This document shows positions 31,945-64,000 of a stretch of 64,000 nucleotides of DNA, piece after piece. The translations under genes and the position numbers were made by a program. Source of the stretch: Chrysomallon squamiferum. Its lineage: Eukaryota > Animalia > Mollusca. Numbering within the stretch: position 1 is the stretch's first letter; every line of letters begins with the position of its first letter. The stretch is taken from contig CM022671.1 in assembly GCA_012295275.1 (NCBI GenBank), positions 1,240,001 through 1,304,000 of the forward strand, read 5' to 3'. A model generated the notes under the pieces. That model was not told the origin of the DNA, did no database searches, and worked only from the letters and a program-made list of their open reading frames with translations.

Positions 31945-31982
<38 letters not shown>

Positions 31983-33799: not shown

Positions 33800-33834
33800 T
33801 TTATATACAATAAAATTAAATTACTGCACTGGGA

Positions 33835-37727: not shown

Positions 37728-39072
37728 ATGGACAGGCATTCATCTTCCGACCGTTTTTCTGGATTTGGAGCACAACAACATGTGCAAGTGCAAAGAGCAG
37801 GTTTGTTGAAACAACAGCGTTTTTTAAACATTTAATACTAAATTAATTTATACAATAAAAACAAACAAAATTAAAATTTGTTGAAACAACAATGATTCTT
37901 AAATACTAATACTATTTATGGAATATAAATTTGCCGCAACGACAACATAGCTTCTGAAGTCCATTTGTCTTTCTTTACTGAAGAATATTAATAAATCACA
38001 TTATTTAAGTGAACATTTGTTATTTATTCAGATTTATATGTGTTAGCATTTTAAAGTATAAAATAATGAAATTTAATGTATGACCTATGTTACCAGATAC
38101 AGATCAGTGCTGGTTTTACATGACATTAATGTACTGATTGCAGCTTTGATTAAGATTTATAATATTTGGTAAACGGATTAATTAGGCCAATTGTTTTTGT
38201 TACGGTATTTATTTTTGATTACAGAATCAAGTACATCGTTCATATCAAGAGAAGAAATGATAAATAAAACAATGAATCAAATAAAAAGTTATGCTCCTTC
38301 AGAATTCGCAGAAATAACGTCTAACATGAAACTGAAAGAACAGGTGACAAAAGAAATTACCAACGTACACGAACTAACAATGAAACTGTCCCAGGAATTT
38401 CCGACCGGTCGTGAATACAACCAGAGAGAAGTTGAACAGAAAATGAAAAAGATTTTCTCTGACGAACAAATCCGACGTATCAAAAGAGGTCTTCAGATTC
38501 CAACTGCCAAACTGGATATGAGTTCAGACTACCTAGATATTACGATCTTCGACAGTGATCGAATTGAATCTGTCCTTTTACGGAAGCAACTGGCTACTTT
38601 TGCTGAATTTGGAAAGTACATTCAGAAATCCAGCGTCTTGGTAGAAGCTCTGTTATTGTTTGCTTCAGTGGCTGAAAAAGTACCATCTTACTCATCGGAG
38701 AGCATGAAGGATGCCCTGGAAAAAGGTGTTGATTTCATTAAAACGACTGGGGGAATTTCCTCAGCCTTGATGAAATGTGTGGAGAGTTGGACTGATTCTG
38801 GTAACAGCATTTGGAAGAAAGCTTATACTTTAGCAGAACTGATGGTGGATTTGTTCAAATCTTCCTGCGCAGTGTTTCTCGATATAATAAAAAGCCTGTT
38901 TAAAAACAAGTCATCAGTGGAATGGATAATGTGTTGTGTACGCCTTGTCGCCTTCTTCGGATCATACATTAATCCACTGGTTCCAGTAATAGCATCCGCT
39001 GCCGCCGATGTTGCTGATTTCGCACTTAAGTTCAAAAATGTCATGATGTTAATAAATGCTTTGAAAAAATGA
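37728..39072 (+). CDS. uncharacterised, predicted alpha-helical protein, ~306 aa, two coding exons
   Basis: ATG 37728; exon to 37800 (phase-1 donor GTTTGT) joins acceptor TTACAG|38225 in frame with the 293-codon ORF ending TGA 39072 (921 nt total). A likely upstream non-coding exon ends at 37537 (GTAAGT). Confidence 0.75.
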
Positions 39073-40662: not shown

Positions 40663-41417
40663 TTATTTGTCCCTGCTTGTATTAGAACATGGACACGCAT
40701 GTACACTGTGACTTCTTAATGAAGAAAACCACTTGAATCTCTTGTCACACTTCAGACACTTGTGTGGTCTCACTGGCTTGTTGTTCTGGACGTAACATCT
40801 CAGGTTATTGTGGTCCAGTAATGATGACCTCCACCTGAAAGTTTTATCACAAAACTTGCACCTGTACTGCTTCTCCCCGTGTTTGCCCTTAACATGCTGT
40901 TTGTAGATTTGCAGAGAGGTGAAAGATACTGCACACACATTGCACACTATCTTCTTCAGGCACTGTTCAAGGTGCTTTTGGAGAGCTGGGTTATGTTTGA
41001 ATCCTCGGCCACACAGATGACACAAGAAACTGCTGGAATTTTCTAGAAGTTTTGTGTGTATCTTCATATGCTTCTCCAGATGGACTTGGTCATAGGTTTT
41101 ATAAAAGCAGACGTAACACTGGAAATGTCCCACCTCGTCGTGCCATTTTATTCTGTGTCTTCTCAGACTTTGTTTGGTGGTGAAGGATTTACCGCAGGTA
41201 TCACACAGGTAGCTGCTGCTTCTGTGGACTGATTTTATGTGATTTTGGAGTTGTGGACCATCTGCAAAATGCTTCTTGCAATAGGAACAGAGAGGATTTT
41301 TGAGAAAAATTTCATGTTTTCTTCTTATGTGTATTTTGATGCTGAGGTATTTTTCAAGGCTGACTGCATAATCACACTGCTTACATCTGAACATGGAGCC
41401 CTCTCTCTTGACATACT
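40663..41417 (-). CDS. C2H2 ZF gene 2, alternative terminal exon J (8 fingers, 3 of them C2HC)
   Basis: Acceptor TTTCAG|41417 is phase 1; in-frame join to donor 43867 gives 600 aa; own stop at 40663; AATAAA at ~40612-40607. Confidence 0.8.
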
Positions 41418-42544
41418 CTGAAACAATCACATTTATGTAAGCAATTACAAAAGTCATAAATAAAAATTGGTTTAACACCCTAATACAACTTCGTATTAAC
41501 AGTTTTTTAACTGTACTGTGAGTGGAAACCTATTATAGCAACAGGGAATTTTTTATACGAAATCTCACAAATACAATAACAAATGCTATGACTGACTTTG
41601 TCTCTTTGATAGTAAACCAGTTGTCGGATATTGGCTGGAAAAAACAGATACTGAAAAAGCCTCAAAAAAATATTATGTAAAATTGCATGAATTTCATTAA
41701 ATCCCTGAATAATTAAATTTCATAAAAAGTGAATAATAAGATGAATTGTAAATTCACTGACACCTTTCTGCCATAAAAAGTAAACGGATTGCTCAGTTTT
41801 GTTTGCATTATTTACACCAGTGGCAAACTGATTGCAAAAACATTTTTAACCATTTAGTCATTATGATCACTGGTATCTTATAACTGCTGTGAGAAAGAAT
41901 TCAACTAAATTGCAAATTTAATGATTATAATTAAAATCTTGACTGCCAAAGTTAAAAAAACAAAAACAGAAGAAAACATTATTTTAAATTTCAAGGTTTA
42001 CAAGTTACCTCAACATATCAATGGAGCTCAATATCCACATCTTTTTATTTATACATTTAACTTCTTTATTTATTTGGTCACTATTAATGAACACAAAAGA
42101 GGTATCTTATTATTAGCGTAACCATAACATGATTATATGTGTAAGTTTGGAAGACAGCAAGAAATGTAATTATTATAAATTCTCCATGTTTCGCAATATT
42201 AATACCACACTGTATACCCCTAAAGTGTTACTGCTAATGCATTAACAGATTATTAATTTTCAGTCTACAAAATATGCATAAAACCAAGTTACTAAGATAA
42301 AAATTGCTTTAATTTGAGAAAGCATGAACATAATCAGTTAAATAAAATACTGTCAGTATGTATAAATAAATAATAATTTCCTTTGTAACTTTTCAATTCA
42401 ACAGTAAAATAATATTGCTTTTGGAAATGCATAATTGGAATTAATGTGTGTTTATAATCTCCCAAATGATTTTTCATCATAATACAGATATTATATTCAT
42501 AAAGTATATTATTAATAAATGATGGTTAACATATTTTGTTCTGT

Positions 42545-43488
42545 TCAGTCCATGTATTCAATCACAAGAGACTGATACTGGATGCCATTCTCTGCCAAAA
42601 TGTCCTCAGCATCTGCTTCTATTTTTATAGTTTGAAAAGAAAGAGTAGGGCATTCTGAATCTGGTTTTGTGTGATTCTCTTTAACATGCTTTTTCACTTG
42701 AAAAGGACGAGCAAAACATCTATCACAGAATTTACACTGAAATAAAAGATCATGACTGTGAGTGATTTTATGTCGAGAGAGATGAGAGGATGTCTGAAAG
42801 TCACGTGAACACACATCACACTTGTACGGTCTCTCTCCTGTGTGAATTCTTTCGTGGTTCTGAAGTGAAATTTTCTGAGAGAATCCTTTTCCGCATGTGT
42901 CACATTTAAATGGTTTAGTTCCCAGATGAAGACGTTTGTGAATCAACAGACTTGACACATGTGCCAGTCGGACTCCGCAGACGTCACACACATAGTTCTT
43001 TGTCTTCGTGTGCACCACAGTGTGCCGGTCTATGTCTCGCTTGCGGTAACTTTTAAAGGAACACAAGCTGCAGAAAAACTTGGGTTCCATGTTTTTGCTT
43101 TTGCCGAGATGGACTCGGTTGTAATGAAGATACAATCCCTTTCTGTCGTAAAATCTAGAAGGGCACGAATCACACAAAACATTTTTCTCACCCAAATGCC
43201 GCAGCTGGTGAGATTTTAGATATTTTTTTTTCACAAATATTTTCCCACAAGTCGGGCATGAAATGGCTGAGTTAGTTTTGGATTCGTGTGTTCGCTGATG
43301 CTGAATAAGAGCAGGTTTTGTCTTTATTCTTAGTCCACATACTTTACATACGTTTTCATTAGCCTGAACTGGGTGAACAGTGATATGATCCACATATTTA
43401 CTCATCTCTTCAAAATGTAAATTACAAACCGCACAAACAAACTTCAATTGAGATGTATCTGAATTTTCACATTTGTCAGTGGAATTGT
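42545..43488 (-). CDS. C2H2 ZF gene 2, terminal exon I (9 fingers)
   Basis: Acceptor TTTTTTCAG|43488 is phase 1; join to donor 43867 gives 663 aa; TGERPY and LGTKPF linkers; stop at 42545. Confidence 0.88.
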
Positions 43489-43866
43489 CTGAAAAAAGAT
43501 AACTTGATGTTACTATTTATGTTGTGGAATTTTCAGGATTGAATCATCATCTTATCGTTGTTGTTATGCATTATGATATACAGTGCTTAGTGTTTGAATA
43601 ATTTTAATCCTACTTCATCATACTGTATAGAAGCCTGCACAGTTCTTACTTTTTGAACTTACCTCTTGCCATATGTGTATTCATTCAGTTTATCAATACA
43701 AAATAAATTTCCATGTCAGAAGATGAATCAATTATATAATATTCATTAATCTTTAACAAAGAATGAGAGAGGAAAGCAAAACAATTAAAAAGCCAACAAC
43801 ATGAAAATAAAAAGGGACAAAGAAAATAAATAGCATTACAAAAAGAATACTTCTTTTTCTTCTTAC

Positions 43867-45424
43867 CTTCGTTTTCAGTTTGAAATTTTTCTATTTTGAT
43901 ACTAGTACAGTGTTTATTTGTCACACTAGACATTTGTTCTGCTTGTTCTCGTACACTTTCTTTTTCTTCAGTAATGTTGAATTTTTTCTTTGTTGGTTTT
44001 TCTGAAAATTGTCTTATTGATTTCAGTGACTTAAGGCCAGCTTTTCTTCCTCGCTTAACTGAAAATTGTTTTGAAGATTTATATTCTGTTTTCCTTTCAG
44101 TAATTTCTGAGCCCTTTTGTTCAGGAGATCCACTGTCCTCGGCTAAATCTGCAGCATCATCATCTGCTGATTTAGTTGAATTATCTTTTGACGTCGTTTT
44201 GAAAGATTTCTCATCTGCAGTTACAGATGATAATTTTACTGCTTTGTTTGAAGTATGTTTTCCTGATTTCAATCCAGCATCTTCAAGACCAACAAACTCC
44301 TGAGAACTAAGCTTCACAGGTAGTCTTGTATGTCTGCCAGATCTTCTGACTCCACTAGTATCTCTTTTTTCCCTTTTACATCCTTTTTTCACCACATCAT
44401 CAGTATTGTCAGTATGTTCCGATGAACTAACCAGTATTGCAGAATGAATTGTACTCGGTGTTTTTTTCATCTCTGTATTTTCTAAACTGTTATCTGTATC
44501 CTCTGAAGATGCTACTGTTTGAGTTAACAGAAGTTCAGCATCAGAAGAATTACACACACCTGCTCTTGTTTCAGATTCAAAAGAACTAGACAAAGCTGTG
44601 GAATTTATTTCAGTTTTCACTCCACTGGTATCCTCCACATGACTGTTTCCTGGGTCAGATTTTCTTCCTTCCAGAACAGAATTACTTTCCAGTCCACAAG
44701 ATATGACTGTGAAAAGTTTGCTGAAGAAGTCGTTTATAACAGATTTTTCCGGACTTTTCTCAGGAAGTCTGATGTAATCTTCAAATGATTTTATACTGAA
44801 ATAATTCAAAGAAAAAATATTTTAAAACTAAATATAACCAAAGAATGTTTAGGGCTACCGAGAGAACAAATTATAAATAATGTTTATACAAAAATGTTTT
44901 TTAATGTAATTTTTAATGATAAACACAACTCAATTTTATATAAGAAAATGTTTCCTTCAAATAAATACTTTGTAATAATCTCTAGAATTTCAGAACTGTA
45001 TTCAAGATTTACAAACATTAAAAATATAATGTAAACTAAAGGTAACATTAACTGATGTTGTAAACATAAATTAGCATTATTCCAGACCAATACTGTAACA
45101 ATTTTATCAAAGAAAAATAAATTTCAAATCATGAGGTCTTTATAATAAATATAGAGTTTTTAATTTTAAATGTATTTAGCTGCTGACAAAAAAGAAAATA
45201 TTAATTTAATAGGCACATTGAAGGCCAGCTACATAACTCAATTATTGACCACATACTAAATATTTTATTACTGAAAACAAAACAAATCTGAAAGCATAAA
45301 GTTACCAGTTATACAGCTGTATAAACAATGACATCTGTTTACTGGCATCAAGATGTGTAACACTCTGTATTTTAGAAAACTCAGCAAGAATATTCTGCTC
45401 AACAAAAATAGCACCAGTCACCAT
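43867..45424 (-). CDS. C2H2 ZF gene 2, shared 5' coding exons (N-terminal domain plus Ser/Lys/Glu-rich linker)
   Basis: Exon 45485-45306 (ATG 45424; MVTGAIFVEQNILAEFSKIQSVTHLDASKQMSLFIQLYN; phase-2 donor) and exon 44795-43867 (phase-1 donor GTAAGA). Probable non-coding first exon ending 46095 (GTAAGT). Confidence 0.82.
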
Positions 45425-47482
45425 AGCTGAAATTCAGTGTTGATTTAGCATTTCAATGCACTTCATCAGCAAGATATCATTCTATCTACAAAAATATAAT
45501 AAGGATATTTAATTGCTAAGATTTTCCATTTGCAAGAATCTATTCACCAGTTATAATTAATGTGTATACGTAACGTATGTGAGTATCTCGATTATCAATG
45601 TGACAGAGCGTAAGTAATAAGTTTATTCAATACTACGTTTATTCAGTTTATTGTATTAGACGAAGTATTGAAGAAGGCTCTGATCATTTGTTTATTTTTT
45701 TACGTTTAAAGTAAATTATCTTCTTATAGACTTATGTCTTTATAAAATTACTTTATGGGTTTCAAAGTAAAATGACATGATAAAATTGAGTTACTTCCCC
45801 TATGTTATAGTATAATTATAGCCAAAACACACACGCACACATGCACGAACGCCAGTGCACATAGGTTTATACATCAAAATCTTAATGACTTTTAACTGCA
45901 GTGCATGCAAGTATTTAAATACAGATAAATACATAAAATACATCAATTGTGTTATAAGTTTTGTGTCATTTCTTAACCATCGATGATCGAAAGTCTTCAT
46001 ATTTTGACTTCAGTAAAAAATTGTATGATATATTCCCAGAAAATATAAGTATTATGAAAAACAACAACACAACTTAATATCCGAATACACTTACCCAGTT
46101 TTTAAAATGAAAAGCACGGTTTAAAATTCAATAGATCTAGAACTCCATTCCTTTAAAACCTACCAAATGCAAGATTGTTCTGTTATTTTCCACCTTGAAT
46201 TATTAGGCACCGGAAAAATAAATTATAACGAACGTTAGTGATAATGGTTGTTCAGAATAGTTCAATATTGTAAAATGTCCTCTTTTCGACGGTTATTTCG
46301 AAATTTTTAATTCACTTTGTTATATATCAGGAATGTTACTGTTTTTATTAATATTAATTTATTGCTGTTATTATTTCCCCATTACTTTGTTGTTCACAAT
46401 AATCTCTGATGCAGATCACTCTGCTAGAATGAAACCTAAATTAAATAATATTAATTATAAATAATAAAATATTAATCTATAATAACATATTTTTTAAAAA
46501 ATGCTTTGTAAATTAATTTATTATTCGTCTTTAATAAGTTTTTAAAATAAAAATAACATATCTGTTTCCTGTGAAACTCAACTTTGTTTTTTTTTTCTTT
46601 AGTTGATGTTTGGATTTTTTAAATCATCTGACAGTCATTGCTTCTATGCTTACAGTCAGTGAGTAAGTAATTAATTTAAAATGAACAAAAGAGAAAACTA
46701 CTAACCAATAAAATAGAACAAATACTCTGTCTAAAGCTATGTATAATAATTCATATTTATTATTTAATGTCTGTGTGTATATACTTTCTGTGTTCACTGA
46801 TAAAATGTATATCGAGGAACACTGCATACAAAATGCAATTTGAGTTTTGTTTTGTTTTGTTCTGATCACCTGCTATTTCATTTTACATTCTATTACAGGT
46901 AAGAGATTGAATTAATCCTTGTTTGGTTGCCATTTCATTTTCCAGCCTGTTCCCTTTACTGACAACATATCTATAGGAAAAATAAAAGATTCTTATTTTT
47001 AATCAATTGGACAGCAATGGGTTTTTTCTCTCTTGCAGTCATTTACATGAAACAGGCCTTGACAAATTAACATCATGTTGTGTTAAACATTCACTCTCTT
47101 GGCTGATTTTGTGTGTCATAAAAAAAAAAAACTGAAGAAAAATACTGTTCATATAAAATTTATCCTCCATTCTTTTTATTTGTCTGAAAACTGATAACTG
47201 TATTGCCAATACTTGGATAAAACAACAGACTTTAAACTTTATCAACAATTTTATTAACATTTGATTTTATGACAAGTTAATTTTTTTTTTTAGGTCTTAA
47301 TGCACTATTAACACAGTTCTCCGACATTTTTGGGGTAGTTTTTAAACCATTTAACAGGCTACAAGTTCTGCAGTTATACAATTTCAATGTACAGATAAAT
47401 CTAAGTTTGTCTTTGTTAAAAATTTAAATAAAAAAATAAATAAAAAAAAACAATAACAAAAACCCCAAACAGCAACAACAAG

Positions 47483-47533
<51 letters not shown>

Positions 47534-50068
47534 TGATAATAAAAATAAAATGTTATTATCAACTAGCATTAAACTTGTGCACATGAACAATTGTTTCTTT
47601 CTACCAGTGGAGCCTAGACTCAATCATTTACTTATTGGTCAAATTATCAATATATTATAAACCTGCTTAAAAAATATATAATAAAAAAAAAAAAAAAACC
47701 TGCTTCTTGATAATAAGTAACTATGCACTGCATGTTAACAAATATTTAACTGATTTGACATTTACATAAATATATGAACATAAATTATTACTTTAAAATA
47801 ACATCAACTCATGAATCTACATAATATGTAATAATGAATATGTCATTCTCTCTGAAAGTATGTAATTAGTTTCATTTGGCACATATTGGCCCAGTTCCCT
47901 TAGGGTGAATACTTTTATTTCTTTGAATCTGATTTTGCTTCTAAGACCTTGCCAGAAATGAAAGCCATGCATATAAATCAAATACATCAGTGTAAGATGT
48001 AAAGATAAACACAGTTATGAGATATTTTTATTTGAATTCAGAATTATAAAATAAATACAATAAAGAAATCCTTTTTAATGGAAGATAATCCCATGCATTA
48101 TACTCTCCCATTATAACAGCTTCATCTTTTTCTGGAACCTTCACAAAAAAATTAGTTGAGACTGTAGCAAACTATCACAGACTTATGTTTGGTGAATGTA
48201 TTGAAAAATGTTATTATTTTAATAAGATGATATCTTCAATGACATTTATTAAGCATATAAAATGAAGAGGAAGAAAAAACACGAACACATATAGATCTTT
48301 TGCAGCCTACTCTGTTTAATGTAAAAAATATAATGTGAAGTCAGCATCAGCAAAATAATAAGAATGATGTAAAGAGACATTACAACTTCTTTCTGGAAAA
48401 AGATAATAAACACACTGCAATATAATGTGACCAAATCATACTCGGAAGAAACGGATAAAAAATTGTGAAGCTAAGAAATGTCTTTATGGAAAAAAATAAA
48501 AAATAAAGAATGATGTTTTACAAGAAGGAAAGAAATAGAGAATATTGTGGCAGATTCTATCAGAAAATGAAATCAAAGATAACAGCACTCATGTGTGGAT
48601 TTGTTTTCTCACTGAAAATAGCAGTAATGCTTTCACCTACATGGCTGTAAGTACATTGAGGCAAATAAGGCAAATGGCTCATACTGAAACTGATAATTAT
48701 TATTTTTTATGTTGATTTTTTTGGTTTAGACAGATTTTATTTAAAAAATATAAAAGATGTCAGGAAATGGCAAGAATTGAGGATTTTGCATCATATTGTG
48801 TTGATGTCACTAATTTATTTTATTTTATTTTACTGTTTGCTCTCTGGCTCCTTTACTAAAGACAAAGGAAACCTCCCCAAAAAGCAACAACAAAAAACTT
48901 AAACCTTCCAAAAACATGCATAAAATAACAATACTGCAGATAACTACATTGTTTTCAATAAAAACAAGTTGAGTACAATAACTGAAACTTAATTTTCACA
49001 TCCAGCTTGATTTCCTTGGTATCATCATCCTGCTGTTTCTGATGTATAAAAGTGACAGGTGTAAAAGCAGTAGACTCAGAAAAATACAAGACTAAAAAAG
49101 TAACAGATTATGCAGGATGTTATCCAGGCATGTATACAAATATATATCTCATCAAGTTAATTATTTTCATAATTTTGTGTTTCTGTGTTATAATTTGGCT
49201 ATAATATTCCATTCACATAATTATAAAAATGATAACAGAAGTTTTCTCACACCTATCAGTAATTTATGTGTCTGATTATCCTAATATGACTCGTTTATGT
49301 GTTAAATATTTGTCAAAAATCAATTTTTTTTGTAATTTTAATAACCCAGAAATACTTTGGAGTCAGTATTTGGAAACACTTTCAGTTTCACACTAGATCT
49401 GGAAACACATCCACACCAACAAAATTTCAAATACCTAAGGCAGCAAAGTAGACTTGCCGCTGGCAAAGAGAAAATACAGACAACATAATTTGGGACCCAT
49501 ATACATATAAGCTTCATCTATATTTTTGTGAATAATAATTTATAATTTATTATCAAAGGTAAACAATGTTTACACTATAATTTACCAAATTATGATTTAT
49601 CTCTACTTTCAAATAGTGCATTTTCACCCACCCAAGAACACATCAATTAATTATATTGACTGTTTCAACCATCCCTGTTTTGTGTACCTTGATTAGAAAT
49701 CTATGTAAAACAAAATACCTCTGACAAAAACTATCATAGGTTTTATTAAAATAGTCAAATGTTTGCTCTAATAATAAAAATAAAACAATAGTATTAGTAG
49801 TAGCAGAACAGTAGTTGTTATAGTGGAAGTGATAGTAGCAATAACAATAATAATAGCAATGATGATAATGATAAAAACAATAAAAACAATAAAAATAATA
49901 AAAGATGCCAGGAAATGGCTAAAATAAAAGGAAAATATTAATCTGTAATAATAAATATAAAGTAGGAGGTTAAACCATACACAGATTGATCTCATGAGAA
50001 ACACATTAAATGATTATCTGAGTTTTGATAGTCAAAGTTTTTAATCCTACAATCACACTTGTAAATGT

Positions 50069-53000
50069 TTATCCAGCCTCTTCTGCTTTTTCAGTTTCCT
50101 CCACATTAGCTGGCTCATCGTTCTCTAAACCATCCCCACTGCTGTTCTCCAACTTCTTATTTTTATCACTGCTGTTATCAACACTTCTATCATTGTTCTT
50201 ATCATCATTATCAACAGCTTCTTCTTCTTCTTCTTCTTCTTCCTCTTCCTCGTCATCAACAGCATCTTCCAAATCACTTCCACTGTAGTAAATGTCATCT
50301 TTGGCTTCCTCTTTGCAGTGGAATTTGGTGATGTGTTTTGTGAGGTGTCTTTCCAGGTAGAAGCTCATGTCACACTGTGGACAGCTGTGGCGTTTCTTTA
50401 TCACATTTGTTTTGGGGTTGGAGTTAGAACTGGATGTATTCTTCTGTCGGGAGTGAATTTTCATGTGTTGTCGTCTGCTGGAGAGTTTTAGAAATGTCTT
50501 ATGGCAGATGTGACAGGTAAATCTTTGTCTAGTTCTGAGACCTGGAAGAGAGGTAATAGTTACCTAATATTATCAACAACTATTAAAAAATAGTAAAAGT
50601 TATGCTTATAATGTGCTTTATTATTTGTAAAATACTGCTTTGTTAAAAGATTGAAAGTTAAAAAAAAAAAGATACTTAGGCTATTAACTAAATTACCTGG
50701 TAACTAATTTAACATCAGTTTTCAATAAACCATGCAAAAAAACACAACAATAAAACCTAAAAAACCAAAACAAAACAACAACAAAAAAGCCTAAAAGAAA
50801 TTCTTTTTTTTTTTTTTTTTTTTGATGCATCATAATGTTATCAGTACAACAAAGTATATCATGCTTCAACAGCAATGGACAGATGGAATGATTTTTTGTA
50901 TTTTATAGTTAAAAAAGATTGTTATATCTGGAGTCAACAAAACATAAAACCAGCAAGTGCTTACCACTTTTATCAACTTTTCTGTCACATACGTTTTGTT
51001 TGACATGCTTGTTATATAGATCCTTTCGGTAAAATGATTTACAACATATGTCACACTGAAAGGGCTTTTTCCCAGAATGCAATTGCATATGCCGTGATTC
51101 ATTTGATGCATTATGAAAATGCTTATGGCATATTTCACAAGTAAAACCACTATCTTGATGTATTTCTGAAAGTTACAAATACAAAGCACTTGTTGATTCT
51201 GTTTTGTTCCACCATTTGTATTCAAATAACGATAATCCAAATATTTCACTCAATGAATGAGAATACTTAATGATATTTTGGCATGAAACAGTACACCAAC
51301 TATTACTGAATGTTACCAGTAAGTGTGTAATTAATATTTTAACTGGCCTAATAAAAATTTAAAAATTAAATTTAAAAAGTAATCTGATAAATGAAAATGT
51401 AAAACAGTTATTTATTATAATTGTTTTTAAGGAACTCAGTTAAAATGCAGTGATTATCACTAGAGAATGGGGCAATTTGGGGTAATTGTTTTCAAAATAT
51501 ATTTTATATATACATGCATACAAATGCAACATATTGTTTGTCCAAAATTGTTTATAACCAAAAGAATAATTTGTGAAAGGGAAATCCTCTAGTTCGTTAG
51601 TTTTGTAAATGAATTAAAAATAAATTCTCCCCTTCCCAAAACAATAAATATAATGACAAAAGTTAAATAATAATAATAATAATAATAATAATAATCATAA
51701 TATTAATCATAAAAATACTGAAAAATATTAAAAAATAAATAAATAAATAAATAAAAAAATAAATAAAAAAAATAAAAAAGAAGAACCAATAAAATAAGTA
51801 GGACAAGAGTACATTTTCTCACCTTTTTTAACAATCTTTTCACAGAGGTTTGCTGCCAGGTGTCTGTCGTACACATCTTTACGATGAAAAGATTTATGAC
51901 ATTTTTCGCACTTGAATGGTGTCTCCCCAGAATGCAGTCGCATGTGTCGTGCTTCGTTAGATGCGTTTCGAAACCATCGTTTACAAATTTCACACTTGAA
52001 GCCACCATCTTCTTTTCTCTGCAGACGCTTTATTTCTGAAAATCAATGCAATTTATTTGATTAGTTATTTTAAATAAACATTCAGCTTCTTTTCTGAAAA
52101 TAATGTAAACCATTTGTTCCCTACTTGCTTTAAGTGCATGTATATCTGTAATATTTTTATATCTTTATATTTGTTAAAAGAAGCAAAGGGTTTCCTGTAT
52201 ATAATCACAACTTACTGACGCACAATACACCTTGCAAATATCCTGCCACTTCCCGCCAGAAAATGGAATAAACAGGTAACTACAACAAACTTGGTAAAAC
52301 ATTTCTATAACATGTTTATAAATAATTTCAGGAGCTTACTTTTTACACAGATGTCTTCTTTGATGTGTTTGGTGTAACTCTCCTTCCTATTAAACTGTTT
52401 GTGGCACTTCTCACACTGCCAGGGTCGTTCTCCTGTGTGAGTTCTCATGTGTCTGGCTTGATGGGAGAAATTTCTGTACCAGCGGTGACAGACCTCGCAA
52501 GTAAACCCGTCTGGCCTCTTCTTTCTCGAAGGACGGGGTTCTGAAAGAAAGCAAGAACGAAATAGGTAAGTTGTGGCACATGCAGATATATGATCTTCAT
52601 GCACAGATATCAATCACACATGCACTTGACTCCATATTGTAATGTATTTTGAATACTTTTAGATATATAGGTAAAAAAAATAAAAAAATAAAAAAAGTAA
52701 ATCAATCCTGCCTTTGTTTATTTTCAAGTAATTATATAAAATACATTTAAAATAATAAAAAAAAGTAATATTTTAACTTTAAAAGAAAGAAAGTGGCTTC
52801 TACCTCAAGACATTCCACATCTATATATATTTTCAAGTAAATATTTTAACTTTTTGTTCACATCATTTGAGGAACACATTAAATTAATTCTGCTGTGAAG
52901 TTCCTACCTGTGTGTATTTTCATGTGCAGTTGTCTGCCTTCTTCTCTGGCAAAACATCGACCACACTCATCACAAGAAAATGGTTTCTCTCCGGTGTGTG

Positions 53001-53585
53001 TTCTCATGTGTATTTCTTCATAACAAGGCCTTCGAAACCACTTGTGACAAATAGTGCATGTAAACCCAGACTGCTTCTTCTTCTTTCTCTTCTTTGGCAC
53101 TACCAGACCTAGGTGTAAATAAAAACATGCAGGTTAAGCATTAAATTATATTCAAAAATATTTTTTTCAATTGTCTGTAACAGGTAACTGTCTGCTAGTT
53201 TTGATTCAAATTTAATATAATTAGTATAAATGCACTATCAAGCAATATGTATGATCTAATATATGTAATGCATAATTAACACACACACACACACACACAC
53301 ATTTATTTTGTATCAAATTTTCGAAATAAATTCATTGTTTCAAAAGTGCAAAATCCAGAGTAGTGAAACACTTCCACAATTTCCTTATTTTAGTTTTCTT
53401 ACCTGCATGTATTTTGAGGTGAAATTTCAAATGATCCTGTCTCTGGTAAGCTTTTCCACACTGGTCACACTTAAACGGTCTTTCCTTTGTGTGCACGTAA
53501 GCATGTCGCCTGGCATGTGAAGCACGGTATATGTCTTTATTGCAGATTGTACAGTAGAAAGACCTTGCCAGACGTATAAAAATAC
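50069..53585 (-). CDS. C2H2 ZF gene 1, multi-exon terminal module (6 exons, 2 fingers each, acidic tail)
   Basis: Exons 53585-53403, 53108-52908, 52540-52340, 52035-51823, 51165-50965 (all phase 1-1; 183, 201, 201, 213, 201 nt) and 50541-50069 (stop; poly-Glu tail). Joined to donor 60610 gives 756 aa. Confidence 0.82.
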
Positions 53586-54204
53586 CTAAAAAAGATAATA
53601 AATGTAACAATTTAAAAATAATTAAATCCTTAAAACATGTAATTAGACTCTGACTGACATTTTAATTAATGACAAATTCGATCACCAAATGAGAAAAAAG
53701 TAAAGTTTACAGCACTCCATTATCCTCTGGGCTACTTTTTAGTGTATTTGTGATAAAAAAATCCCTTTTTTTATCTATTTCCTTGGGGACTTTGTTCAGA
53801 ATGGATACCAATCTGTCATAATAAAGTACAAATTAATAATTTGCATGGAAGATGTTATTCTTCTATTTTTGTGAATAGGTATGTATATATGTGTATGTGT
53901 GCTGGAGAAAGACTTTCTTTTGTATGCATATGTGTGTGTGTGTGTATATATAGAATATAACTTACAGATTGAGTATTTACAGTTTTGCAGCATTTACCAT
54001 CTTTCACACTCTATTTTTCTTTATTTTCAAAAGTTTGTTTTATCTGTGTAAGGAAGATCTTTTATATGTGCCTATCTAGAGGCATGAAAGTACATTGAAC
54101 ACTCTAATAGTAAATGTAAATGAGTGATTATAATCTGGCTTATTGGATGGGCTGTTCTTTGCTTTAGCACAATATACAATAACCAACAGTATTAGAAATG
54201 AACA

Positions 54205-54240
<36 letters not shown>

Positions 54241-54635
54241 TTGTATATGTATATTTGTTTTTTTAAAGAAAACACAGTAATAATAATAAAAAAGTAAATA
54301 AATAAAAAATAAAAAAATGTTTTAATTTACTTTGTACTGGGTATTCAGTTCATTTAACAAATCAGCACAAACACTGTTTTTACACACCTCATAATATTTA
54401 TTATGTTTAGTGTAATAAAACACACACTTTTAAATATTGTTTAAAAACAGATTCATTTACATTTTTCCAAAACTAACAATGTAAAGAAATATTTGATGTT
54501 TTTCTTGGATGAAAACTGTCTGAAAAACTAGAATGACCCAAAGATGTTTTTCAGCATGCAGTACAATGTCTTCAAGTTTCTCCCAATCCATCCTAACAAG
54601 AGAAAATAAATGTCTCAAGAAATTATATATAAAAA

Positions 54636-55174
54636 TTAATTTATAGTCTTCATCACATGAACAGACCGGAGATGTCTGAAGAAATTTGACCGACATGAAA
54701 ACGTTTTTCCGCAGGTGGCACACATGTAAGGCATCTCTCTTGTGTGAGTCACTAGGTGTGTCGCAAGTTGTGACGACTGAATAAACTTGCGTCCACAGGT
54801 CTTGCACTGGTGAGGTTTGATCCCTGTGTGCTGGAATCTGTGCCGTTTGAGTGAGCTCTGAAAGGAAAAGCAGAGTCCACACACTTCACAAACGTGGTTC
54901 TTTGTCCCTGAGTGAGTTATGTAGTGATCTCTCAGATGCATTTTGGTTCGAAACGGTCGGTTACAAACACTGCACCGGAATGGTTTCACTCCCAGGTGAA
55001 TGAGAATGTGTCTTGCCAGTGTGTCCTTTCTTGTGAATTTCTTACCACACTCATCACATTTAATTTCTCTAAGACATGCTTTCTGGTGCTGTTTGATTGT
55101 TCTCTTTCGGTAACAAACTTTGTTGCATTTGCTGCAAGTATATTCAGTTCTGTGTACTTTCTGGTTGGTTTTGT
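54636..55174 (-). CDS. C2H2 ZF gene 1, alternative terminal exon B (6 fingers)
   Basis: Acceptor TTTCACAG|55174 is phase 1 and extends the 117-aa ORF upstream by two more fingers; stop at 54636; join to 60610 gives 445 aa; AATAAA at ~54402-54397. Confidence 0.82.
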
Positions 55175-55358
55175 CTGTGAAAGATACAAAATAAATATGA
55201 TTAGATGTTTAAAAACACTATTCATACATATGACACAGATACTTCAAAAAAATTACCTTTACTGAAATTAAAAACAACAGCTTTTTCTTGGTTAAATTTT
55301 GAGTTAAATTTTATTTACCTTTCATGTGTATCTAATAAAATAATATATATATATGTAA

Positions 55359-55359
<1 letters not shown>

Positions 55360-55404
<45 letters not shown>
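55360..55404. repeat. (TG)n microsatellite
   Basis: Pure TG run. Confidence 0.95.
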
Positions 55405-55408
<4 letters not shown>

Positions 55409-56827
55409 CAAAATTCTAAATAAGAAATTAAAACTCAAAAATGTTGTTTTAAAATATTAATACTAACAAATCTGAATTATAAAAATCAGACTTCATTGAA
55501 AACAAAAATACAAAAAGAAAGGCTGAACTCACCACTAAAATGGCTTCTTTCCTCAAAATTAATAGCCAATTCAGAAGTTGATGATTGAACAGAAATACTC
55601 CACATTTAATGAACTAAGAAAGAAGTAAAGTTGTGAAAAATCCTGGACCAGAACAGGCACATTTTCTTTGAAATGAAATCACGCAATGAATTCATCATAT
55701 TGATAAAAATTTAAAAGATAAAAACCCACAAAAAATAGTACGCAAGAGTGATAGTCTTTTTATAATGTAGCCATAGTGAGAAATGAAAAATACTTTATTT
55801 CTTAAATTTTACATTATTTTCAAAATTTTTAATTTGTCATACAACTTGTGATCACTGAATTAAAGTTGCTCATAAGAATACTAGAAAATAAACCATTTAT
55901 ACAGTGAGTTCAGTTTTCTTTTTTCTTCACCTGAAAATTAAATATCATTCAAAACATTTGCTAACTGAAAAGTGTACAAACTATTTTTGATTAATCAAGC
56001 TCAATAAAGTAGCTCATTATACTGTGTCTGACATCACTGCTTAACTTTTATCAAACTTCAACAGACTTTTCTTTAATGACATTTCAGTTGTAACATAACT
56101 AACTTGAATAATAAAAATTCTGGCACAGAAACATGAAGAATCTAGTTAATTAAAATCATTACTGCTTCATCACTTACATCTTCACAATTATCTGATAGTA
56201 AAAGCAACAAATACCAAGAAAAAAGAAAAGAAAGAAAAACATTATCATGTTTTGTTTAAATTACTGAAAAAGAAGTAATTACAAAGTTTCAACACATTAT
56301 ACAAAGCCTATAATAACAATTGAACATTTTACTTCTTAGTACTTTTGGCAATAAAACTACTGTGTGTTTTCTTTGGGAAACAGTTTAATTCAATTTCTTT
56401 TCTTTTTTTATGAATTACAAGTTGTTTTAAAAAAAAGAAAAGAAAAAAAAAAAAAAAAAAAATTTAAATTAAGAATCAAAAATAAAGAAAGATATATAAT
56501 CTTATTAAAATGTACTAAAAGAAGTAACACATTTTCATTTTACTAACTGAATTTTTAGACAATTCTAAATGATCATATATTTGAATAGCTATATAACAAC
56601 TTAACCAAAAAAAAGAACTTAACAAGAAAGAAAATAAAACAATAATGTATAGAATATGCTCTTGCTAATTAAACACAACCTCCAAAATGTAATAATGGCA
56701 TAAACAAAGATAGTAAAATTATGCAATATGTTTTACAACTGCATAGCAGTTCATGACATGATATTGAAAAAAAGTTCTCTTGTGTTTGTGTCTATCTGAA
56801 CATATATTTATATGTATTTGAATAATG

Positions 56828-58614
56828 TTATACAGTAGATGTATTCAGTATACTTTGGTTGTTTTCGTGCACTTTTCTTGTATGTTTAATCAAACAGGTT
56901 TCTGTTCTAAAGATCTTTTCACAGTTATCACATTTATGTTGTTTCTTATCAGTGTGTGTTTTCATGTGACGATGCAAATCATAAGCAAGATGATAACGTT
57001 TATCACAGACTGAACACTGGAATCCACAAGTCTTAGAGTGTCTTGTCAACATATGTCTCTTTAGAGAATATTCAAAAGAAAATTTCATCCCACAACATTC
57101 ACACATGTGATCCTTCTGTCCTGTGTGTACCACTGAATGTTTATTCATGTAATTTTGAGTGTCACAGACAAAAGGACACCAAGGGCATTTCAGTTGTTTT
57201 TTCTTTTTGACACTTTCAGTTTGATGAACCTGAAGGAAATGCTTTACAAATCCTGTTCTGGATGTATATAACTTAGAACAAACGTTACAAGTGAAACTGG
57301 ATCGAGTAGGATTGTGAATTCTACTGTGCTGAGTTAAACCACCTTTGAAGTGAAAGTATTTTCCACAAACCTTGCAAGTATAGACAGTGTTATCTGAATG
57401 TGTCTTTTTATGCAAGTTTAGTGCTGATACTGAAAGAAAGCACCTATTGCACTGGTCACATTTGAAGGGTTTGTAATTGATGTGGGAGGACATGTGAACT
57501 CTAAGACTGGATTGTCTTGGAAATGATTTATCACACTGGCCACACTGAAAAGGCAGAAAGCCATGATCATTCACCTTGTGACTGACCAACGTTGTCTTTG
57601 TAGTAAAGAGCTTGTCACAAAACTTACAAGAAAATATATTCACTCTTGATTGATTACTGCTACTCTCATCCACAGAAACACAGATCTCATTTTTGTGTCT
57701 TTTAGCAATGTGTGCCTTTAAGGTGTACTTATTCGCAAGGCACTGCTGGCACCAATAACACTTAAATGGCTTTGCACCTGTGTGTGTTCTCCTGTGGCGA
57801 TTAAGTGAGCTGTTTTTAGAAAAGCTTCTGTTGCATATTTCACAGACATATTTGTATACTTTAGGATCTGTGTGAAGTTTTTTATGACTGATCATAGATG
57901 ATCGTTCTGTGAAAGACTTTTCACACTGATCACACTCATACGGTCTCAAGCCAGAGTGAACCTGAACATGGCTCATCAGCATTTCTTCTGTGTCAAACTT
58001 GCCATCACAATACCTGCACTGATGTTTTAGAATTCTAGACCTCTTAGTTTTCATTACAGTTTGGGTATTTTTCAACTCTGGTGATATCCTGCTATTATTT
58101 TTGTGTTTGATGTCTAATGAATTTCTCTCATGTGATGCCATATTTGAATTACTCATCTCAGGAGTGTTTTTATTTGCTTCTGAATTAGATGAAATGACAG
58201 ATCTTTCATGAAAGTGTATGTGTCTGTGTCGACTAAGAGTAAAACCTTTAGCAAACTTTTTCCCACAAATATCGCAGAGGTACTTGAAAGCACTTTCACC
58301 TAAATGCAGTTTTTTATGGGCGACTAATGATGATCTTTCTGTAAAAGTCTTTTTACATTTTATACAAACATACGGTTTGAGACCTGTATGAGTTTTTACA
58401 TGGTTACTGAATTTCTCAAAGTCACAAAACATGCTATCACAAAATCTGCACCTGTGTTCTGACAAAGGTATGTCTTCATTAAATGTAATGTAATATTTCA
58501 ACTTTGCTGCACTCTGGTTATTTACTTCTGATTCTCTCAACTGTTTATTTGCTTCTAAGGAGCTGCAAGGAACTGAAGACAGTCTGGACTTTGTCTCATT
58601 ATCTTTGTTCAGTT
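56828..58614 (-). CDS. C2H2 ZF gene 1, terminal exon A (16 fingers)
   Basis: Acceptor TTGTTTCAG|58614 is phase 1; 16 C2H2 fingers counted in the 601-aa ORF; stop at 56828; join to 60610 gives 861 aa. Confidence 0.9.
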
Positions 58615-59959
58615 CTGAAACAATAAACACCACCTGTCAGCCACTTCAGGGTGAAATCAGACAAACATACAGATAACAGTATGATTATAAATGTTATCCT
58701 ATGTAGTTATCCATTGACTTACGGTTAACAAAGATACAGTAATTTATAAATAATTCTGTGAACCGTATCTGTTTTTCTTAAAGTAACTACTTTTGTGAAA
58801 AAGAAGTATCAGGTATTTCCGTTTTCTGTTCAGTGTTCAATGTAGCAGCATAACTGTACATTGATATTGATAAATAATGTAATCTTTAAATCATCCATCT
58901 GTTTTCTTTTTTCAGTAAAGATATGAGTAATGAAATGATATATGATGAATGACTAATAAAAGAAAATAGCATTTATTCAGTTATAGTGTATATTTTGTTC
59001 TTCAGATATTTAGATTGTAAAATGTTTTTTGCAGTTTTACATTATTATTGGGATTTTTTAATTTTTGAACCTATAAAATACAATTACATAGTTAAAAAAA
59101 AAAAAAATAATAATAATAATAAAAAAAAAAAATTAATATCACAACTGAAGAACTGGTTCTCAGCTGTATAATTTACTTCAAGGTTAGAGGTTTGAAGGGA
59201 AGACTGCATATCATTTACAAACATTTGAACTGTTTTATAATGTGTACATTATTTATCTATTCTTTGCCAGTTAGCTCCAAACAAATATCTAAAATGTTTA
59301 TCCATCTCCAAAAGTGGTGAGATTATTCAGCTTCAGTGACATAATTTTTGATGTCTAGTGCTTCAAATAAATATAATGCCCTAATATATTCCTGTACATC
59401 CAAATGTTAATTTTGTTCACAGACTCTGTTAATAATAAAATATAAAACAATAATCTAACAAGAAACAAGGTAGCCACTATTAAGTCTTGGAACTACTTGC
59501 TGACTGAAATGAAGTTTATAAATTATGTGCAGAAAACCTAATTTCATTATTATTTACTTTGTGTTATCTGGAATGATTGGCAATAAGATTCCAAGTCGCC
59601 AGGTTTTATGGAGTGATTGATAGAAAATCAAAATGAATTAAATAATATTAACTGAATGCTCTGAAAAAAAAAATCCCATTACACTAAACATGATTTATAC
59701 AGAAAATATCTGTGCATTCCAAATGATTGTTCTCTGTACAGAAAATTTGTTTTTACATCTTTCATATCTCAGATCTTTTGAATAGCAAATCACAGTGATC
59801 TATAATAAGTTATCTCATGGCTGCAACTTGGCTCTTTTTGAAATGAGCCAAAAACCAATGCCTTTTAAGTCAGTTATGTCTTTCATCGTAATGATGTCGG
59901 TAGACTTCAAACGGTAACCACAGTCTTGAACATATTCATTCAGTGGATATTGTTTCTAT

Positions 59960-60215
59960 TGCAATAGAGATATGTATTTTATTATTTTTTAAATAAAACC
60001 TTTGTATAAAAAAAAATTTAAAAATTAAAAAAAATAACAAAAACATTTGGGATTTTCAGTATGAGGTATTTGTTTCAATACAGTTCTGGCAATAGAGATT
60101 TATATTTTATATTTTTTAAATAGAATCTTCGTATAAAAAAAAATTAAAAATAAAAAAAAATTAAAAAAACATTTGGTCATTTCAGTATGAGGCATTTGCC
60201 TCAATATAGTTATGG
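59960..60215. repeat. ~128-bp tandem duplication in ZF gene 1 intron
   Basis: GCAATAGAGAT...GTATAAAAAAAAATT...ACATTTGG...TTTCAGTATGAGG(T/C)ATTTG...TCAATA appears twice. Confidence 0.8.
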
Positions 60216-60609
60216 CCATGTATTCATAAGGCTATTGATAATTTCATTTTTTTTAAAAAGAAGAAAAAAGCCAAGTCTCATGCTTAGCAACCCATGTGAA
60301 CATGTTCAATGTATTCCAGATGGCTGCAGTTTGAAAAAAAGAACCTAAAAACAACCAGTTAACATAATAGTGTGACATTAATACAATAGTTTAAGTAGTA
60401 AATACCAAAGGTATTCAGTAGAAACCTGCTATGATATACTCTAGAATATGCTAGGCATAAAATATAAACAGCAATTATAGCTGACTAATTAAAGTTTAAA
60501 TCTTTATAAATATGATTATTACAAAAAGAAATCCCTATTCACTACATTATAACTGGGTTCTACTCCACAATTTAATAAAAAGAAATTATAACATGCATGT
60601 ATAACACAC

Positions 60610-61636
60610 CTGATTTATCCAAAATTTCATCTTTTTCTATTGGAATGCCTCTATCAACTTTTGACCGGTATGGGCCACGTTTTCTACCAACGTTTTTAAC
60701 TACTTTTTTCACCATTTTATTTTCCTCAGTATTGCTGCCTATCGATATACATCCTGATGGAAGCAGAACTTCATCAGCAATGTTGCCTGACCCTATTTCT
60801 TGGATGTTAGAAGTCTGCAAAATCATTGATGTCATATCACAGTCATTGTCACTTTGTTCTGGGGGTGCAGCTTCAAAGAATGTTTCTTCCAAATTATGAC
60901 TGATGTTCTTGGATGGAGATACATCTGCCTGCACAGAAAATGTTGTCAAGGCAACAGCTTCAGCTGGAAAAGCTGCAGCATCTGATTGTTCTTGAGGAGC
61001 TATATGTTCTGTATACAACGACTGTGGAATTATGGGATTTGATGGGTCAATTTTTGAAACTGCTTTGTTTAACACTGATACTTTCGGGTAGTCCTGGTTA
61101 TCAGTCGGAACGCTAGGTACTGTCGAAGGTTCTAATGAATCCTCTGTTTTTGGAACAACCGATGCAGTTGACAATGGGCTGCTGTAATCTGATGCAAACT
61201 TCTTGAAAACATCTGATAAGACAATCGTGCTGTCAGCATCGAGATCATCCCTGTCAAGTTTCACATGAACTGACTTGACACTGAAATAACAAATTTTACT
61301 GTGAAAGTAATTTACAAATGAGAATTGATATTCAATAAATAAATAAATAAAAAGTATGGAAAGACTAATAAAGTAAAAATGCTCACAGTTTTAACACTAG
61401 TATATGTAAAGCACCTCTTCATTTTATGACATATGATCAAATCATATTATGAAAAGAAACCAAAAAAAAAAAAAAAAAAAAAAAACAATAGAAATGAGAA
61501 TATTTTACCAGTGGTACAGTTGAAAGAACTGTTCCATTTGCATATCAACATCAAGATTAGTTTCATACTGAATGGCCTGGAACTGTACAAGAATGTCATG
61601 CCTGACAACAAGCATACAATTCCCGTTTTCAGCCAT
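60610..61636 (-). CDS. C2H2 ZF gene 1, shared 5' coding exons (N-terminal domain plus linker with basic GRKRGPYR motif)
   Basis: Exon 61661-61509 (ATG 61636 in context AAGATGG; MAENGNCMLVVRHDILVQFQAIQYETNLDVDMQMEQFFQLYH; phase 2) and exon 61280-60610 (phase-1 donor GTGTGT). Probable upstream exons 62060-61921 (in-frame ATG at 62012 possible) and one ending 63121 (GTAAGT). Confidence 0.82.
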
Positions 61637-62609
61637 CTTCAGTTTTAGACTGCATAGATATCTACAAAAACACAAAAATCATAATTTTTATAAGTTTTAC
61701 CATATACACAAATATTCAGATTTATTTGAAACCGAAGAAATAAAGATAGAAAATGGAGATAATTTAATTGATTAAAAATATTTTTTTTTAAATTAAACCC
61801 AAAAATATCTAATACTAATAGCATAGTGACAGTATTTTAACATTATTATCATTAACAATTTTCAAACATGTTCAGAATGAGTGTCAAACAGAAAAAGAAA
61901 AAAAGAAAAAAGAAAAACACGATATCATATTTAAGACTGTTGTCATGGTGCACGCAGCCTTCTGTGCATTAACATCACAGCCCGTTTTGCACACATTGAA
62001 AATTACTGACATTTAGATTTCAGTGACAACTAAAATGAAGATTGACACATTAATCTTTTGCTGAGAAAAAGGAAAAGAAAAGAAAAAAAAAAGGTGGTTT
62101 ATAATATAATTCATGACAACGGCTAATTTGAAAAAGATAATTGTTATAGTTTTTGGTTGTTTTGTTTTTTAAACCAGCTTTGGGATATAAATTTTAAAAA
62201 AAATGTTCAAAACTGTGATCAATACAGTAAAAGAACATGTAAGAAGAGCACCAGCTATAAAATGAACGTATATTGAGTATCTCTCCCTGACCCTCTCTTT
62301 GTAGATATTTTTAACCATATAACTTTATTTTAAAAACTTTCAAAACACTTATAATTTTGTAATCTGAAGTTTTGATGAAACAGATAGAATATGAATATTT
62401 TATTATAAATAGATTTCAGTCAACAGTTATGAGTATTTTTTTTTACTTGTTGTGTCACAATCAATGTATAAAATATGTGTGCTTATTAACTGAATAATAT
62501 TAAAATTAAACCATATTTATCATGCAGTTTTTTCTCTTTAAATTTAAGATGCCCTAGAAAGTAATAGTTTAAAAACAGTAATACTGCTCATCTTCACATT
62601 CTTATACTC

Positions 62610-62644: not shown

Positions 62645-64000
62645 GTTATTATTATTATTAAATTAAGGAATGGTTATACAAAATTACTAATAGGGGAATG
62701 CCAAATAATTGGAAAATGTTATATGATTCGACCAAATATAGCTAGGAAATGATCATTTTGGGGTACTTATACCTTGTGTTCTGGAGTTTTGGGGCACAAT
62801 TATTGCAGAAACAAACAAACAAAATATCAGCTATAATTTGTTTAACGAGAGTTAGATTCAAATAAAACTATAGCAGTATCGTCATCAAAGTTTTTTTTAT
62901 GTGCCATATAAAGACTGAAACTGACAAGGTGTTTTTGTTTTTTTCAGAAACATACAATATTAAAAAATTACATTTGGCACGCGACTGTAGTGACACAAGT
63001 AATGGAACACCCTTCAAAATACTGCCAAAAGTCTGAAAACTATTAAATCGTAATCGTTGGTATAAATATTAAATAAAACACGAAAACATTTACCAAACCA
63101 ATAAATTTAACTATACTTACAAGAAAAATGTAAACAAAATAAATCTATTTTTTTTAAAATATAACAATTTTCTCAATATTGAGCGTCTTCGAAAGATTCT
63201 TGCGAAGAACGACAACTCATTTATACTTCCATCACATACAAGGAAGAGCCAAATCAAAATCATTTATTTATTCAAACAATTATTAAAAATAAAAATAAAA
63301 ATAAAAACGTTATTATTATTTATTTAATTTTTTATGCTGATATCAAAAGTTTTACACGGAATGTTTACCGTTCCAGGGCCTATTTGGGTATTAAGAATAA
63401 TGAAAGTATGCTTCCTAGCTTTCAAATCATATATTATTTATAGACGATAAAAACTAAACCCTCTCCAAAAACAAATAAAACAAACAAAACATCAAACTAA
63501 ACAAAGGAAAAAAAATAAAGAAAGAAATAAAGAAAAAAGAAAAAGAAAAAACTGCCACTACAGTAAATACAAATAGTATCATTAAGGAATTGTTGTACAC
63601 AATAGTTATAATAAGGGAATGTCAAATAATAAATAAATGACTAAACGGACAACAACAAATTGAATAACAATAATAATTATAATTTCTATTTTTAATTTAA
63701 AAAATAAACTGAAGCGATCTGAAAAACTGTAAAAGAAAGGAAAACTGGAAAATATTTTTTTGATGATGAAGAAATGTAAATGTATGTAACGCATCTTAAA
63801 CATATGCAGATAATTACATGAATCATGTAAGCTATATTTGCAGAGAGGCTGTTATTAAATAAAAACAAAAATTTGAAAAGTTCAGTTTAATTACATTATT
63901 TTGCATTATCGGAATTTGAAAATTTTGAAATTGGTCATACTTCATCATGATTTACCAAAACAAATATTCTGTTTATGAGTGTGTTTGTTTGTTTGTCTGT

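What the first reader, a model, noticed from the sequence alone, without database searches (positions are those of the whole stretch)
50069..61661. One shared 5' region with three alternative C2H2 zinc-finger 3' modules: lola/mod(mdg4)-like switching without a BTB domain
Seen: the finger-less 5' exons (61661-61509, 61280-60610) end in a phase-1 donor. Downstream are three unrelated finger arrays: A (16 fingers, 58614-56828), B (6 fingers, 55174-54636) and C-H (12 fingers, 53585-50069). Each starts at a pyrimidine-rich phase-1 acceptor, has its own stop, and has AATAAA downstream. All three joins give open frames (861, 445, 756 aa). The 1.0-1.7 kb gaps before B and C show no recognisable start exon or CpG-retaining promoter. 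Because A and B end in stops, they cannot be chained. Known: constant N-terminus plus alternative terminal DNA-binding exons is established for insect BTB genes (lola, mod(mdg4), fruitless, broad). Inference: this locus does the same with large poly-ZF arrays and a different N-terminal domain, so one promoter yields several transcription factors with different DNA specificities. Automated annotation would likely split it into separate ZF genes.
Basis: partly seen in the sequence, partly recalled or inferred. Interest (0 to 1): 0.88.

Follow-up and report, generated by a model that had tools for sequence, protein, structure and literature searches.

The report
Snail genes with swappable zinc-finger ends
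A snail gene carries one shared front part followed by three different zinc-finger (DNA-binding) ends; gene models of a related snail join the front to two of them, the third join is only predicted, and a sister gene next door is built the same way, so each gene likely makes several different regulators, as the fly gene lola does but on an unrelated front domain.

Summary
The splice sites and frames are real: the joins give 861, 445 and 756 aa (16, 6, 12 fingers). NCBI models of the snail Gigantopelta aegis share 277 identical residues, then continue into the orthologue of A (X1) or of C-H (X3; X4 skips one finger pair), switching at the codon the window predicts. So A and C-H joins are well supported, though only by a relative's gene models. 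The B join is not shown: B looks functional (5 of 5 coding differences silent), but one RNA contig crosses its acceptor unspliced. AATAAA is at chance level. The shared ~42-aa motif matches no Pfam family and is not BTB; a low-confidence model resembles ribbon-helix-helix dimer proteins (Z at most 3.5, a lead). The scan noted BTB-less lola-like loci before in an annelid and a sea urchin (unchecked notes). Verdict: lola-like design, not a lola member; new variant of a known kind.

The parts
63001..63500 (-). likely promoter/5' end of gene 1 (CpG-retaining stretch; candidate non-coding exon donor near 63120)
   Evidence: CpG o/e 1.51; donor motif; inferred, no TSS data
61509..61661 (-). gene 1 constant exon 1; ATG 61636; encodes the shared ~42-aa front motif; phase-2 donor
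   Evidence: 86% identical to G. aegis P0001
60610..61280 (-). gene 1 constant exon 2 (linker, basic stretch near its end); phase-1 donor
   Evidence: 52% identical to G. aegis P0001/P0002 over the full query
56828..58614 (-). terminal module A, 16 C2H2 fingers, own stop
   Evidence: 45% identical to the tail of G. aegis isoform X1
55533..55613 (-). possible 81-nt exon-like piece: either a private start exon for B (ATG 55605) or a stop-containing cassette; may be chance
54636..55174 (-). terminal module B, 6 C2H2 fingers, own stop; join to the constant exons inferred
   Evidence: 5 of 5 coding differences silent
53403..53585 (-). module C-H, first exon (2 fingers)
   Evidence: follows the constant part directly in G. 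aegis X3/X4
52908..53108 (-). module C-H, exon D (2 fingers)
52340..52540 (-). module C-H, exon E (2 fingers)
51823..52035 (-). module C-H, exon F (2 fingers)
50965..51165 (-). module C-H, exon G (2 fingers); its orthologue is present in G. aegis X3 and skipped in X4
50069..50541 (-). module C-H, last exon H (2 fingers, acidic tail, stop)
45501..46500 (-). likely promoter of gene 2 (CpG-retaining)
   Evidence: CpG o/e 1.0-1.1; inferred
45306..45424 (-). gene 2 constant exon 1 (from ATG), paralogue of gene 1 exon 1, same phase-2 intron at the same Cys codon
   Evidence: 47% identity over 32 aa, E 6e-9; sites
43867..44795 (-). gene 2 constant exon 2; phase-1 donor
   Evidence: 31% identical to G. 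aegis P0127
42545..43488 (-). gene 2 proximal terminal module A2, 9 fingers, own stop (join gives 663 aa)
   Evidence: join inferred
40663..41417 (-). gene 2 distal terminal module B2, 8 fingers, own stop (join gives 600 aa)
   Evidence: 61% identical to the tail of G. aegis P0127, which joins it to the constant part

Best explanation
This is one gastropod gene whose two shared front exons are likely spliced to one of three different zinc-finger ends (A, B or C-H), and a tandem sister gene directly downstream has the same front motif and two such ends. Shown in the sequence: one phase-1 donor, three phase-1 acceptors, three open frames with their own stops, one copy of the front exon per gene in the window. 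Shown in a relative's gene models: front+A, front+C-H, skipping of one finger pair inside C-H, and front+distal end for the sister gene. Inferred: front+B; choice of end by competition between the three acceptors and 3'-end formation after each module, by ordinary cis-splicing since all parts lie in order on one strand; different DNA targets for each form, because the recognition residues differ. Predicted only: the ~42-aa front motif folds as strand-helix-helix and would dimerise like a ribbon-helix-helix domain, doing the job that BTB does in lola.
For: G. aegis X1 (880 aa), X3 (786), X4 (721) share 277 identical residues and then read E (X1) or G (X3, X4), the same residues that the window's joins to A and to C give. 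Tails are orthologous: A to X1 45%, C-H to X3 72%, against 25-37% between non-matching modules. The front exon occurs twice in the window, once per gene, and not in the gaps before B or C (tblastn). CpG peaks lie ahead of each gene and not in those gaps. B has no in-frame Met before its third finger, and 5 of 5 coding differences in two runs are silent where 33% of transitions would be (about 0.004; 0.012 for the 4 from run X5 alone). The sister gene's distal module is joined to its front in G. aegis 'isoform X2'. Fold lead: helices 13-26 and 30-42 at pLDDT 70-79; about 30 of the 50 rows are ribbon-helix-helix proteins by my recalled classification (two titles say so); Arc, CopG and MazE align at 1.4-1.6 A over 36-37 columns; the Atlas's first structural row for the sister protein is a NikA-like cluster, TM 0.56, under its naming bar.
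Against: In the window's own species an X1 contig crosses the B acceptor unspliced (55045-55260 and beyond), and coverage of B at depth 2.7-4.1 may be DNA or unspliced RNA of the longer form, since no silent stretch was laid as control. No front+B protein was returned among 2 hits of 2212 candidates or 2 of 407. A possible private start exon for B exists. Fold evidence is weak: mean pLDDT 55.6, best Z 3.5, Foldseek E 2.6 or worse.
Confidence: 0.75

Rival explanations
1. Only two ends (A and C-H) are used with the shared front; B is a separate small gene starting at 55605 or further up, or a recently silenced exon lying in A's 3' UTR and in the intron of the C-H form.
For: No front+B model was returned; an X1 contig crosses the B acceptor unspliced; a 24-codon phase-1 start exon with a strong donor lies 360 bp upstream.
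Against: 5 of 5 silent coding differences argue against a dead exon; no CpG peak before B, whereas both genes have one; the candidate start exon arises by chance in 6-11% of resamples; isoform X2, implied by the numbering X1, X3, X4, was also returned by no call, so the collection is incomplete.
Confidence: 0.2
2. The modules are separate zinc-finger genes of a tandem cluster and the relative's isoforms are prediction errors or rare read-through splicing.
For: Molluscan C2H2 genes do form large clusters (PMC9068888, passages); no joint was seen here in the window's own species; RefSeq 'X' models are computed (recalled).
Against: Switch at the predicted codon in two species; the same skip-to-distal join in the sister gene; no second front exon and no CpG peak before C; C has no in-frame Met ahead of its fingers.
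Confidence: 0.04
3. The ends are joined to the front by trans-splicing, as at lola and mod(mdg4), not by cis-splicing.
For: lola and mod(mdg4) isoforms form by trans-splicing (PMC11426971, passage); stops and 3' ends between modules would be bypassed that way.
Against: All modules are on one strand in order, so cis-splicing suffices; no internal CpG peak that could drive separate acceptor RNAs.
Confidence: 0.05

Closest known systems
Drosophila lola (Tramtrack-group BTB; 20 isoforms, 17 with different C2H2 ends) and mod(mdg4) (at least 30 isoforms) - PMC11426971, passages
   Same: Constant front with a likely self-associating domain joined to one of several DNA-binding ends; lola isoforms have widely different DNA specificities (PMC3668361, passages).
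   Different: No BTB here; a mollusc, whereas the paper calls the Tramtrack BTB group arthropod-specific; few ends (3 and 2) but large ones (6-16 fingers), one of them multi-exon with a skipped cassette; no sign that trans-splicing is needed.
Drosophila broad and tramtrack (isoforms with distinct finger sets; PMC3668361, passages); fruitless (recalled)
   Same: A handful of alternative finger ends on one gene; closest in scale.
   Different: BTB front; ends of about two fingers (recalled).
Gigantopelta aegis XP_041349548/549/551/552 and XP_041349558
   Same: Orthologues of gene 1 and gene 2, already listed by NCBI as isoforms.
   Different: Named after unrelated vertebrate proteins (ZNF665-, 271-, 431-, PRDM15-like); the layout and the front domain were not found described in my paper searches.
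Ribbon-helix-helix proteins (Arc, CopG, NikR, NikA) and the RHH-like plant TCP domain (bioRxiv 10.1101/2022.11.22.517060, passages)
   Same: Predicted strand-helix-helix of about 40 residues; these dominate the fold-search list.
   Different: No sequence-level match; Z at most 3.5; here it sits on a C2H2 protein; the cited passage lists RHH among classes absent from mammals.
BTB-less lola-like loci in a probable annelid and a sea urchin
   Same: One front exon, alternative finger ends, an unnamed front domain.
   Different: Up to 87 two-finger ends reported there; no sequence look-alike to this front motif was returned, so relatedness is open.

Membership tests
Tramtrack-group BTB-zinc-finger genes (lola, mod(mdg4), broad) | N-terminal BTB domain | tested here: not met
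   No BTB match at E up to 1 for the four constant exons or for P0002, nor at E up to 0.5 for P0124-P0129; the conserved motif is about 42 aa.
Tramtrack-group BTB-zinc-finger genes (lola, mod(mdg4), broad) | constant 5' exons joined to alternative 3' DNA-binding exons | tested here: met
   Met for A and C-H and for gene 2's distal end through G. aegis models; not shown for B.
Tramtrack-group BTB-zinc-finger genes (lola, mod(mdg4), broad) | isoforms bind different DNA sites | not testable with these tools
   Recognition residues differ between A, B and C-H; binding not measured.
lola / mod(mdg4) | trans-splicing | not testable with these tools
   Needs phased long reads; the layout is colinear on one strand.
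Tramtrack-group BTB-zinc-finger genes (lola, mod(mdg4), broad) | multimerisation through the constant domain | not tested
   No complex was folded.
Ribbon-helix-helix fold | strand-helix-helix monomer of about 40 residues | tested here: inconclusive
   Strand 7-9 in the 4-sequence model, extended and unassigned in the 10-sequence model; two helices in both; RHH-rich hit list but Z at most 3.5, Foldseek E 2.6 or worse.
Ribbon-helix-helix fold | obligate dimer with a two-stranded ribbon | not tested
   No complex was folded.
KRAB-, SCAN- or ZAD-zinc-finger genes | KRAB, SCAN or ZAD domain at the N-terminus | tested here: not met
   No such Pfam match.

The most novel reading that the evidence does not exclude
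A molluscan family of C2H2 regulators uses an undescribed ribbon-helix-helix dimer domain in place of BTB, and its genes each splice that domain to alternative large finger arrays, so that five ends from two neighbouring genes (plus skipped finger pairs and a third paralogue) can pair combinatorially: an independent invention of the lola system on a fold known mainly from prokaryotes and plant TCP factors.
Probability: 0.3. Interest if true: 0.8.

Novelty: new variant of a known kind. Interest (0 to 1): 0.62.

Why it matters
It would show that the lola design (constant partner domain, swappable DNA-binding end) arose in molluscs on another scaffold, with whole 6-16-finger arrays as the swapped unit. 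Counts of C2H2 'genes' in molluscan clusters may then misstate the number of genes and of regulators. A ribbon-helix-helix domain on an animal C2H2 protein would add a fifth kind of front domain beside KRAB, SCAN, BTB and ZAD (list recalled). The locus is small enough to test by RT-PCR and a peptide biophysics experiment.

Tried and rejected
No genome is held, so family size in this species is unknown. The wide lay over all three joins gave no result; only 54560-55260 was laid, on 3 of the 4 RNA runs and on X5: no joint and no loose end was listed; X2 and X3 contigs lie wholly inside B's coding part and X2's begins 2 nt inside the acceptor, which I do not count, because contigs show no absence and the flanks were short. 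The A and C joins were therefore never examined in this species' RNA. A search with B returned 124 generic finger proteins among 249 candidates, none above 43%. Metagenome scans: nothing for exon 2 (0 of 104 stretches), 5 unrelated finger loci for B (5 of 106). AATAAA rejected as evidence. First fold model (4 sequences, pLDDT 52.5) gave no Z of 5 or more and no RHH-rich list. PDB sequence searches: 0 hits. Atlas by features: nothing usable for P0001, under 0.9 for P0127. The complex predictor was not available, so dimer formation has no verdict. A resemblance of the motif to the N-termini of ZNF692/ZNF653/ZFP91 is recalled, untested; a paper search gave nothing on it. Paper searches that found no description of this layout or domain in molluscs, listings only; the library lacks most subscription papers, and no supplements were read (genome-paper supplements could bear on novelty).
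Full report
Observation. The window is AT-rich animal DNA; the closest proteins come from the vent snail Gigantopelta aegis, so a related gastropod is likely; no genome is held. From ATG 61636 the two front exons give 266 codons plus one base, and joining them to 58614, 55174 or 53585 gives 861, 445 and 756 aa with 16, 6 and 12 C2H2 fingers. The modules are 25-31% identical to each other; the C-H exons look like tandem copies of a two-finger unit (for example F and G 36/63 identical). The CpG argument holds: peaks at 63.0-63.5 kb and 45.5-46.5 kb, one more over coding exon F, and 0-0.35 in the gaps before B and C.

Joins to A and C-H. A search with exon 2 returned 2 proteins of 2212 candidates, both G. 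aegis; a third is a cluster member. X1 (880 aa), X3 (786 aa) and X4 (721 aa) share 277 identical residues; the next residue is E in X1 and G in X3/X4, exactly what the window's last exon base plus the first two bases of A or C encode. X1's tail matches A (45%), X3's matches C-H (72%), and X4 lacks the orthologue of exon G. These are NCBI models; I could not see their read support, and one locus is inferred from the identical front, neighbouring accessions and equal contig length. These two joins were not examined in the window's own RNA.

Join to B. Five runs hold the region, four of them RNA from one study. Laid on 54560-55260, three RNA runs cover B at depth 2.7-4.1; one X1 contig runs unspliced across the acceptor; run X5 spans the stretch in one piece. 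This does not show that B is transcribed as an exon. B's frame appears to be under selection: 5 of 5 coding differences are silent against 33% expected for transitions (one is from a depth-3 contig). B has no Met before its third finger, so it needs an upstream phase-1 exon. One private candidate exists (55605-55533), at 6-11% chance. No front+B protein was returned, but neither was isoform X2. I put the B join at about 70%.

Sister gene. Directly downstream lies a second gene: exon 45424-45306 is homologous to gene 1's first exon (47% over 32 aa, E 6e-9), with the same phase-2 intron at a Cys codon, then a linker exon ending in phase 1 and two finger modules with their own stops (663 aa/9 fingers, 600 aa/8 fingers). 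G. aegis XP_041349558 ('isoform X2') joins this front to the distal module (61%) and not the proximal one (28%).

Front domain. No Pfam family matches. A 42-position profile against 1.84 billion representatives gave 5 hits at E up to 0.001: the two orthologues, a third G. aegis paralogue (XP_041348671) and two unnamed ENA fragments that end where the conserved intron would begin. With 10 sequences the model has two helices (13-26, 30-42) at pLDDT 70-79 behind an extended hydrophobic stretch; the rest is below 50. No single structural match is significant (best Z 3.5, rmsd 4.0, 68 aligned, AvtR), but about 30 of the 50 rows are ribbon-helix-helix proteins by my recall, plus the TCP domain, which bioRxiv 10.1101/2022.11.22.517060 calls RHH-like (passages). 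Foldseek lists Arc, CopG and MazE at 1.4-1.6 A over 36-37 columns, E 9; the Atlas lists a NikA-like cluster first for the sister protein, under its bar. The earlier 4-sequence model did not give this list. This is a lead, about 45%.

Mechanism. Most likely one promoter per gene, two constant exons, and a choice among downstream phase-1 acceptors coupled to 3'-end formation after each module, by cis-splicing; further variety by skipping finger pairs inside C-H. Each product would carry the same predicted dimer domain and a different finger array (recognition residues differ).

Comparison. lola makes 20 isoforms, 17 with different C2H2 ends, and mod(mdg4) at least 30, by trans-splicing, on Tramtrack-type BTB domains (PMC11426971, passages); lola isoforms differ widely in DNA specificity (PMC3668361, passages). 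This locus works like them but lacks BTB, so it is not a member. Cephalopod C2H2 expansion is described as gene clusters (PMC9068888, passages); the G. aegis genome paper has no occurrence of 'isoform' or 'alternative splicing' in its main text (PMC7895826, term search and passages). Seven paper searches (listings only) found no description of this layout or domain in molluscs. Earlier unchecked notes of this scan report BTB-less lola-like loci in an annelid and a sea urchin; no sequence look-alike was returned.

Verdict. Observation confirmed; interpretation supported for two of three ends by a relative's models, open for B; extended to a gene family with an unnamed, possibly RHH-like front domain. 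New variant of a known kind; interest 0.62.

Noticed in passing
window 40663-46500 (-): Second gene with the same front motif, intron phases and two alternative finger ends; its G. aegis orthologue joins the front to the distal end.
   Followed up: yes
window 50965-51165 (-): Exon G's orthologue is skipped in G. aegis X4; all five internal C-H exons are frame-neutral two-finger cassettes, and reading into each following intron meets a stop within 9-31 codons, so shorter ends are possible.
   Followed up: partly
window 55533-55613 (-): 81-nt exon-like piece with good acceptor and donor; would carry a stop if joined to the constant exons (possible poison cassette) or start a private form of B.
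   Followed up: partly
P0124 (G. aegis XP_041348671): Third paralogue with the front motif and a different finger set, on a contig of the same length; listed without an isoform label.
   Followed up: partly
window 38182-39072 (+): Intronless-looking 296-aa frame with no Pfam match over cut-off, on the other strand, downstream of gene 2.
   Followed up: no
window 29900-33820 (-): Exon-like frames that look by eye like pieces of a serine/threonine kinase (TSSK-like, recalled); Pfam gave nothing on the stop-to-stop frames.
   Followed up: partly
window 11049-11510 (+): Tandem repeat of about 42 bases that stays open as a 14-residue repeat.
   Followed up: no
window 46500-50068 (-): 3.5 kb between the C-H stop and gene 2's likely promoter holds no finger motif on this strand; probably a long 3' UTR.
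   Followed up: no
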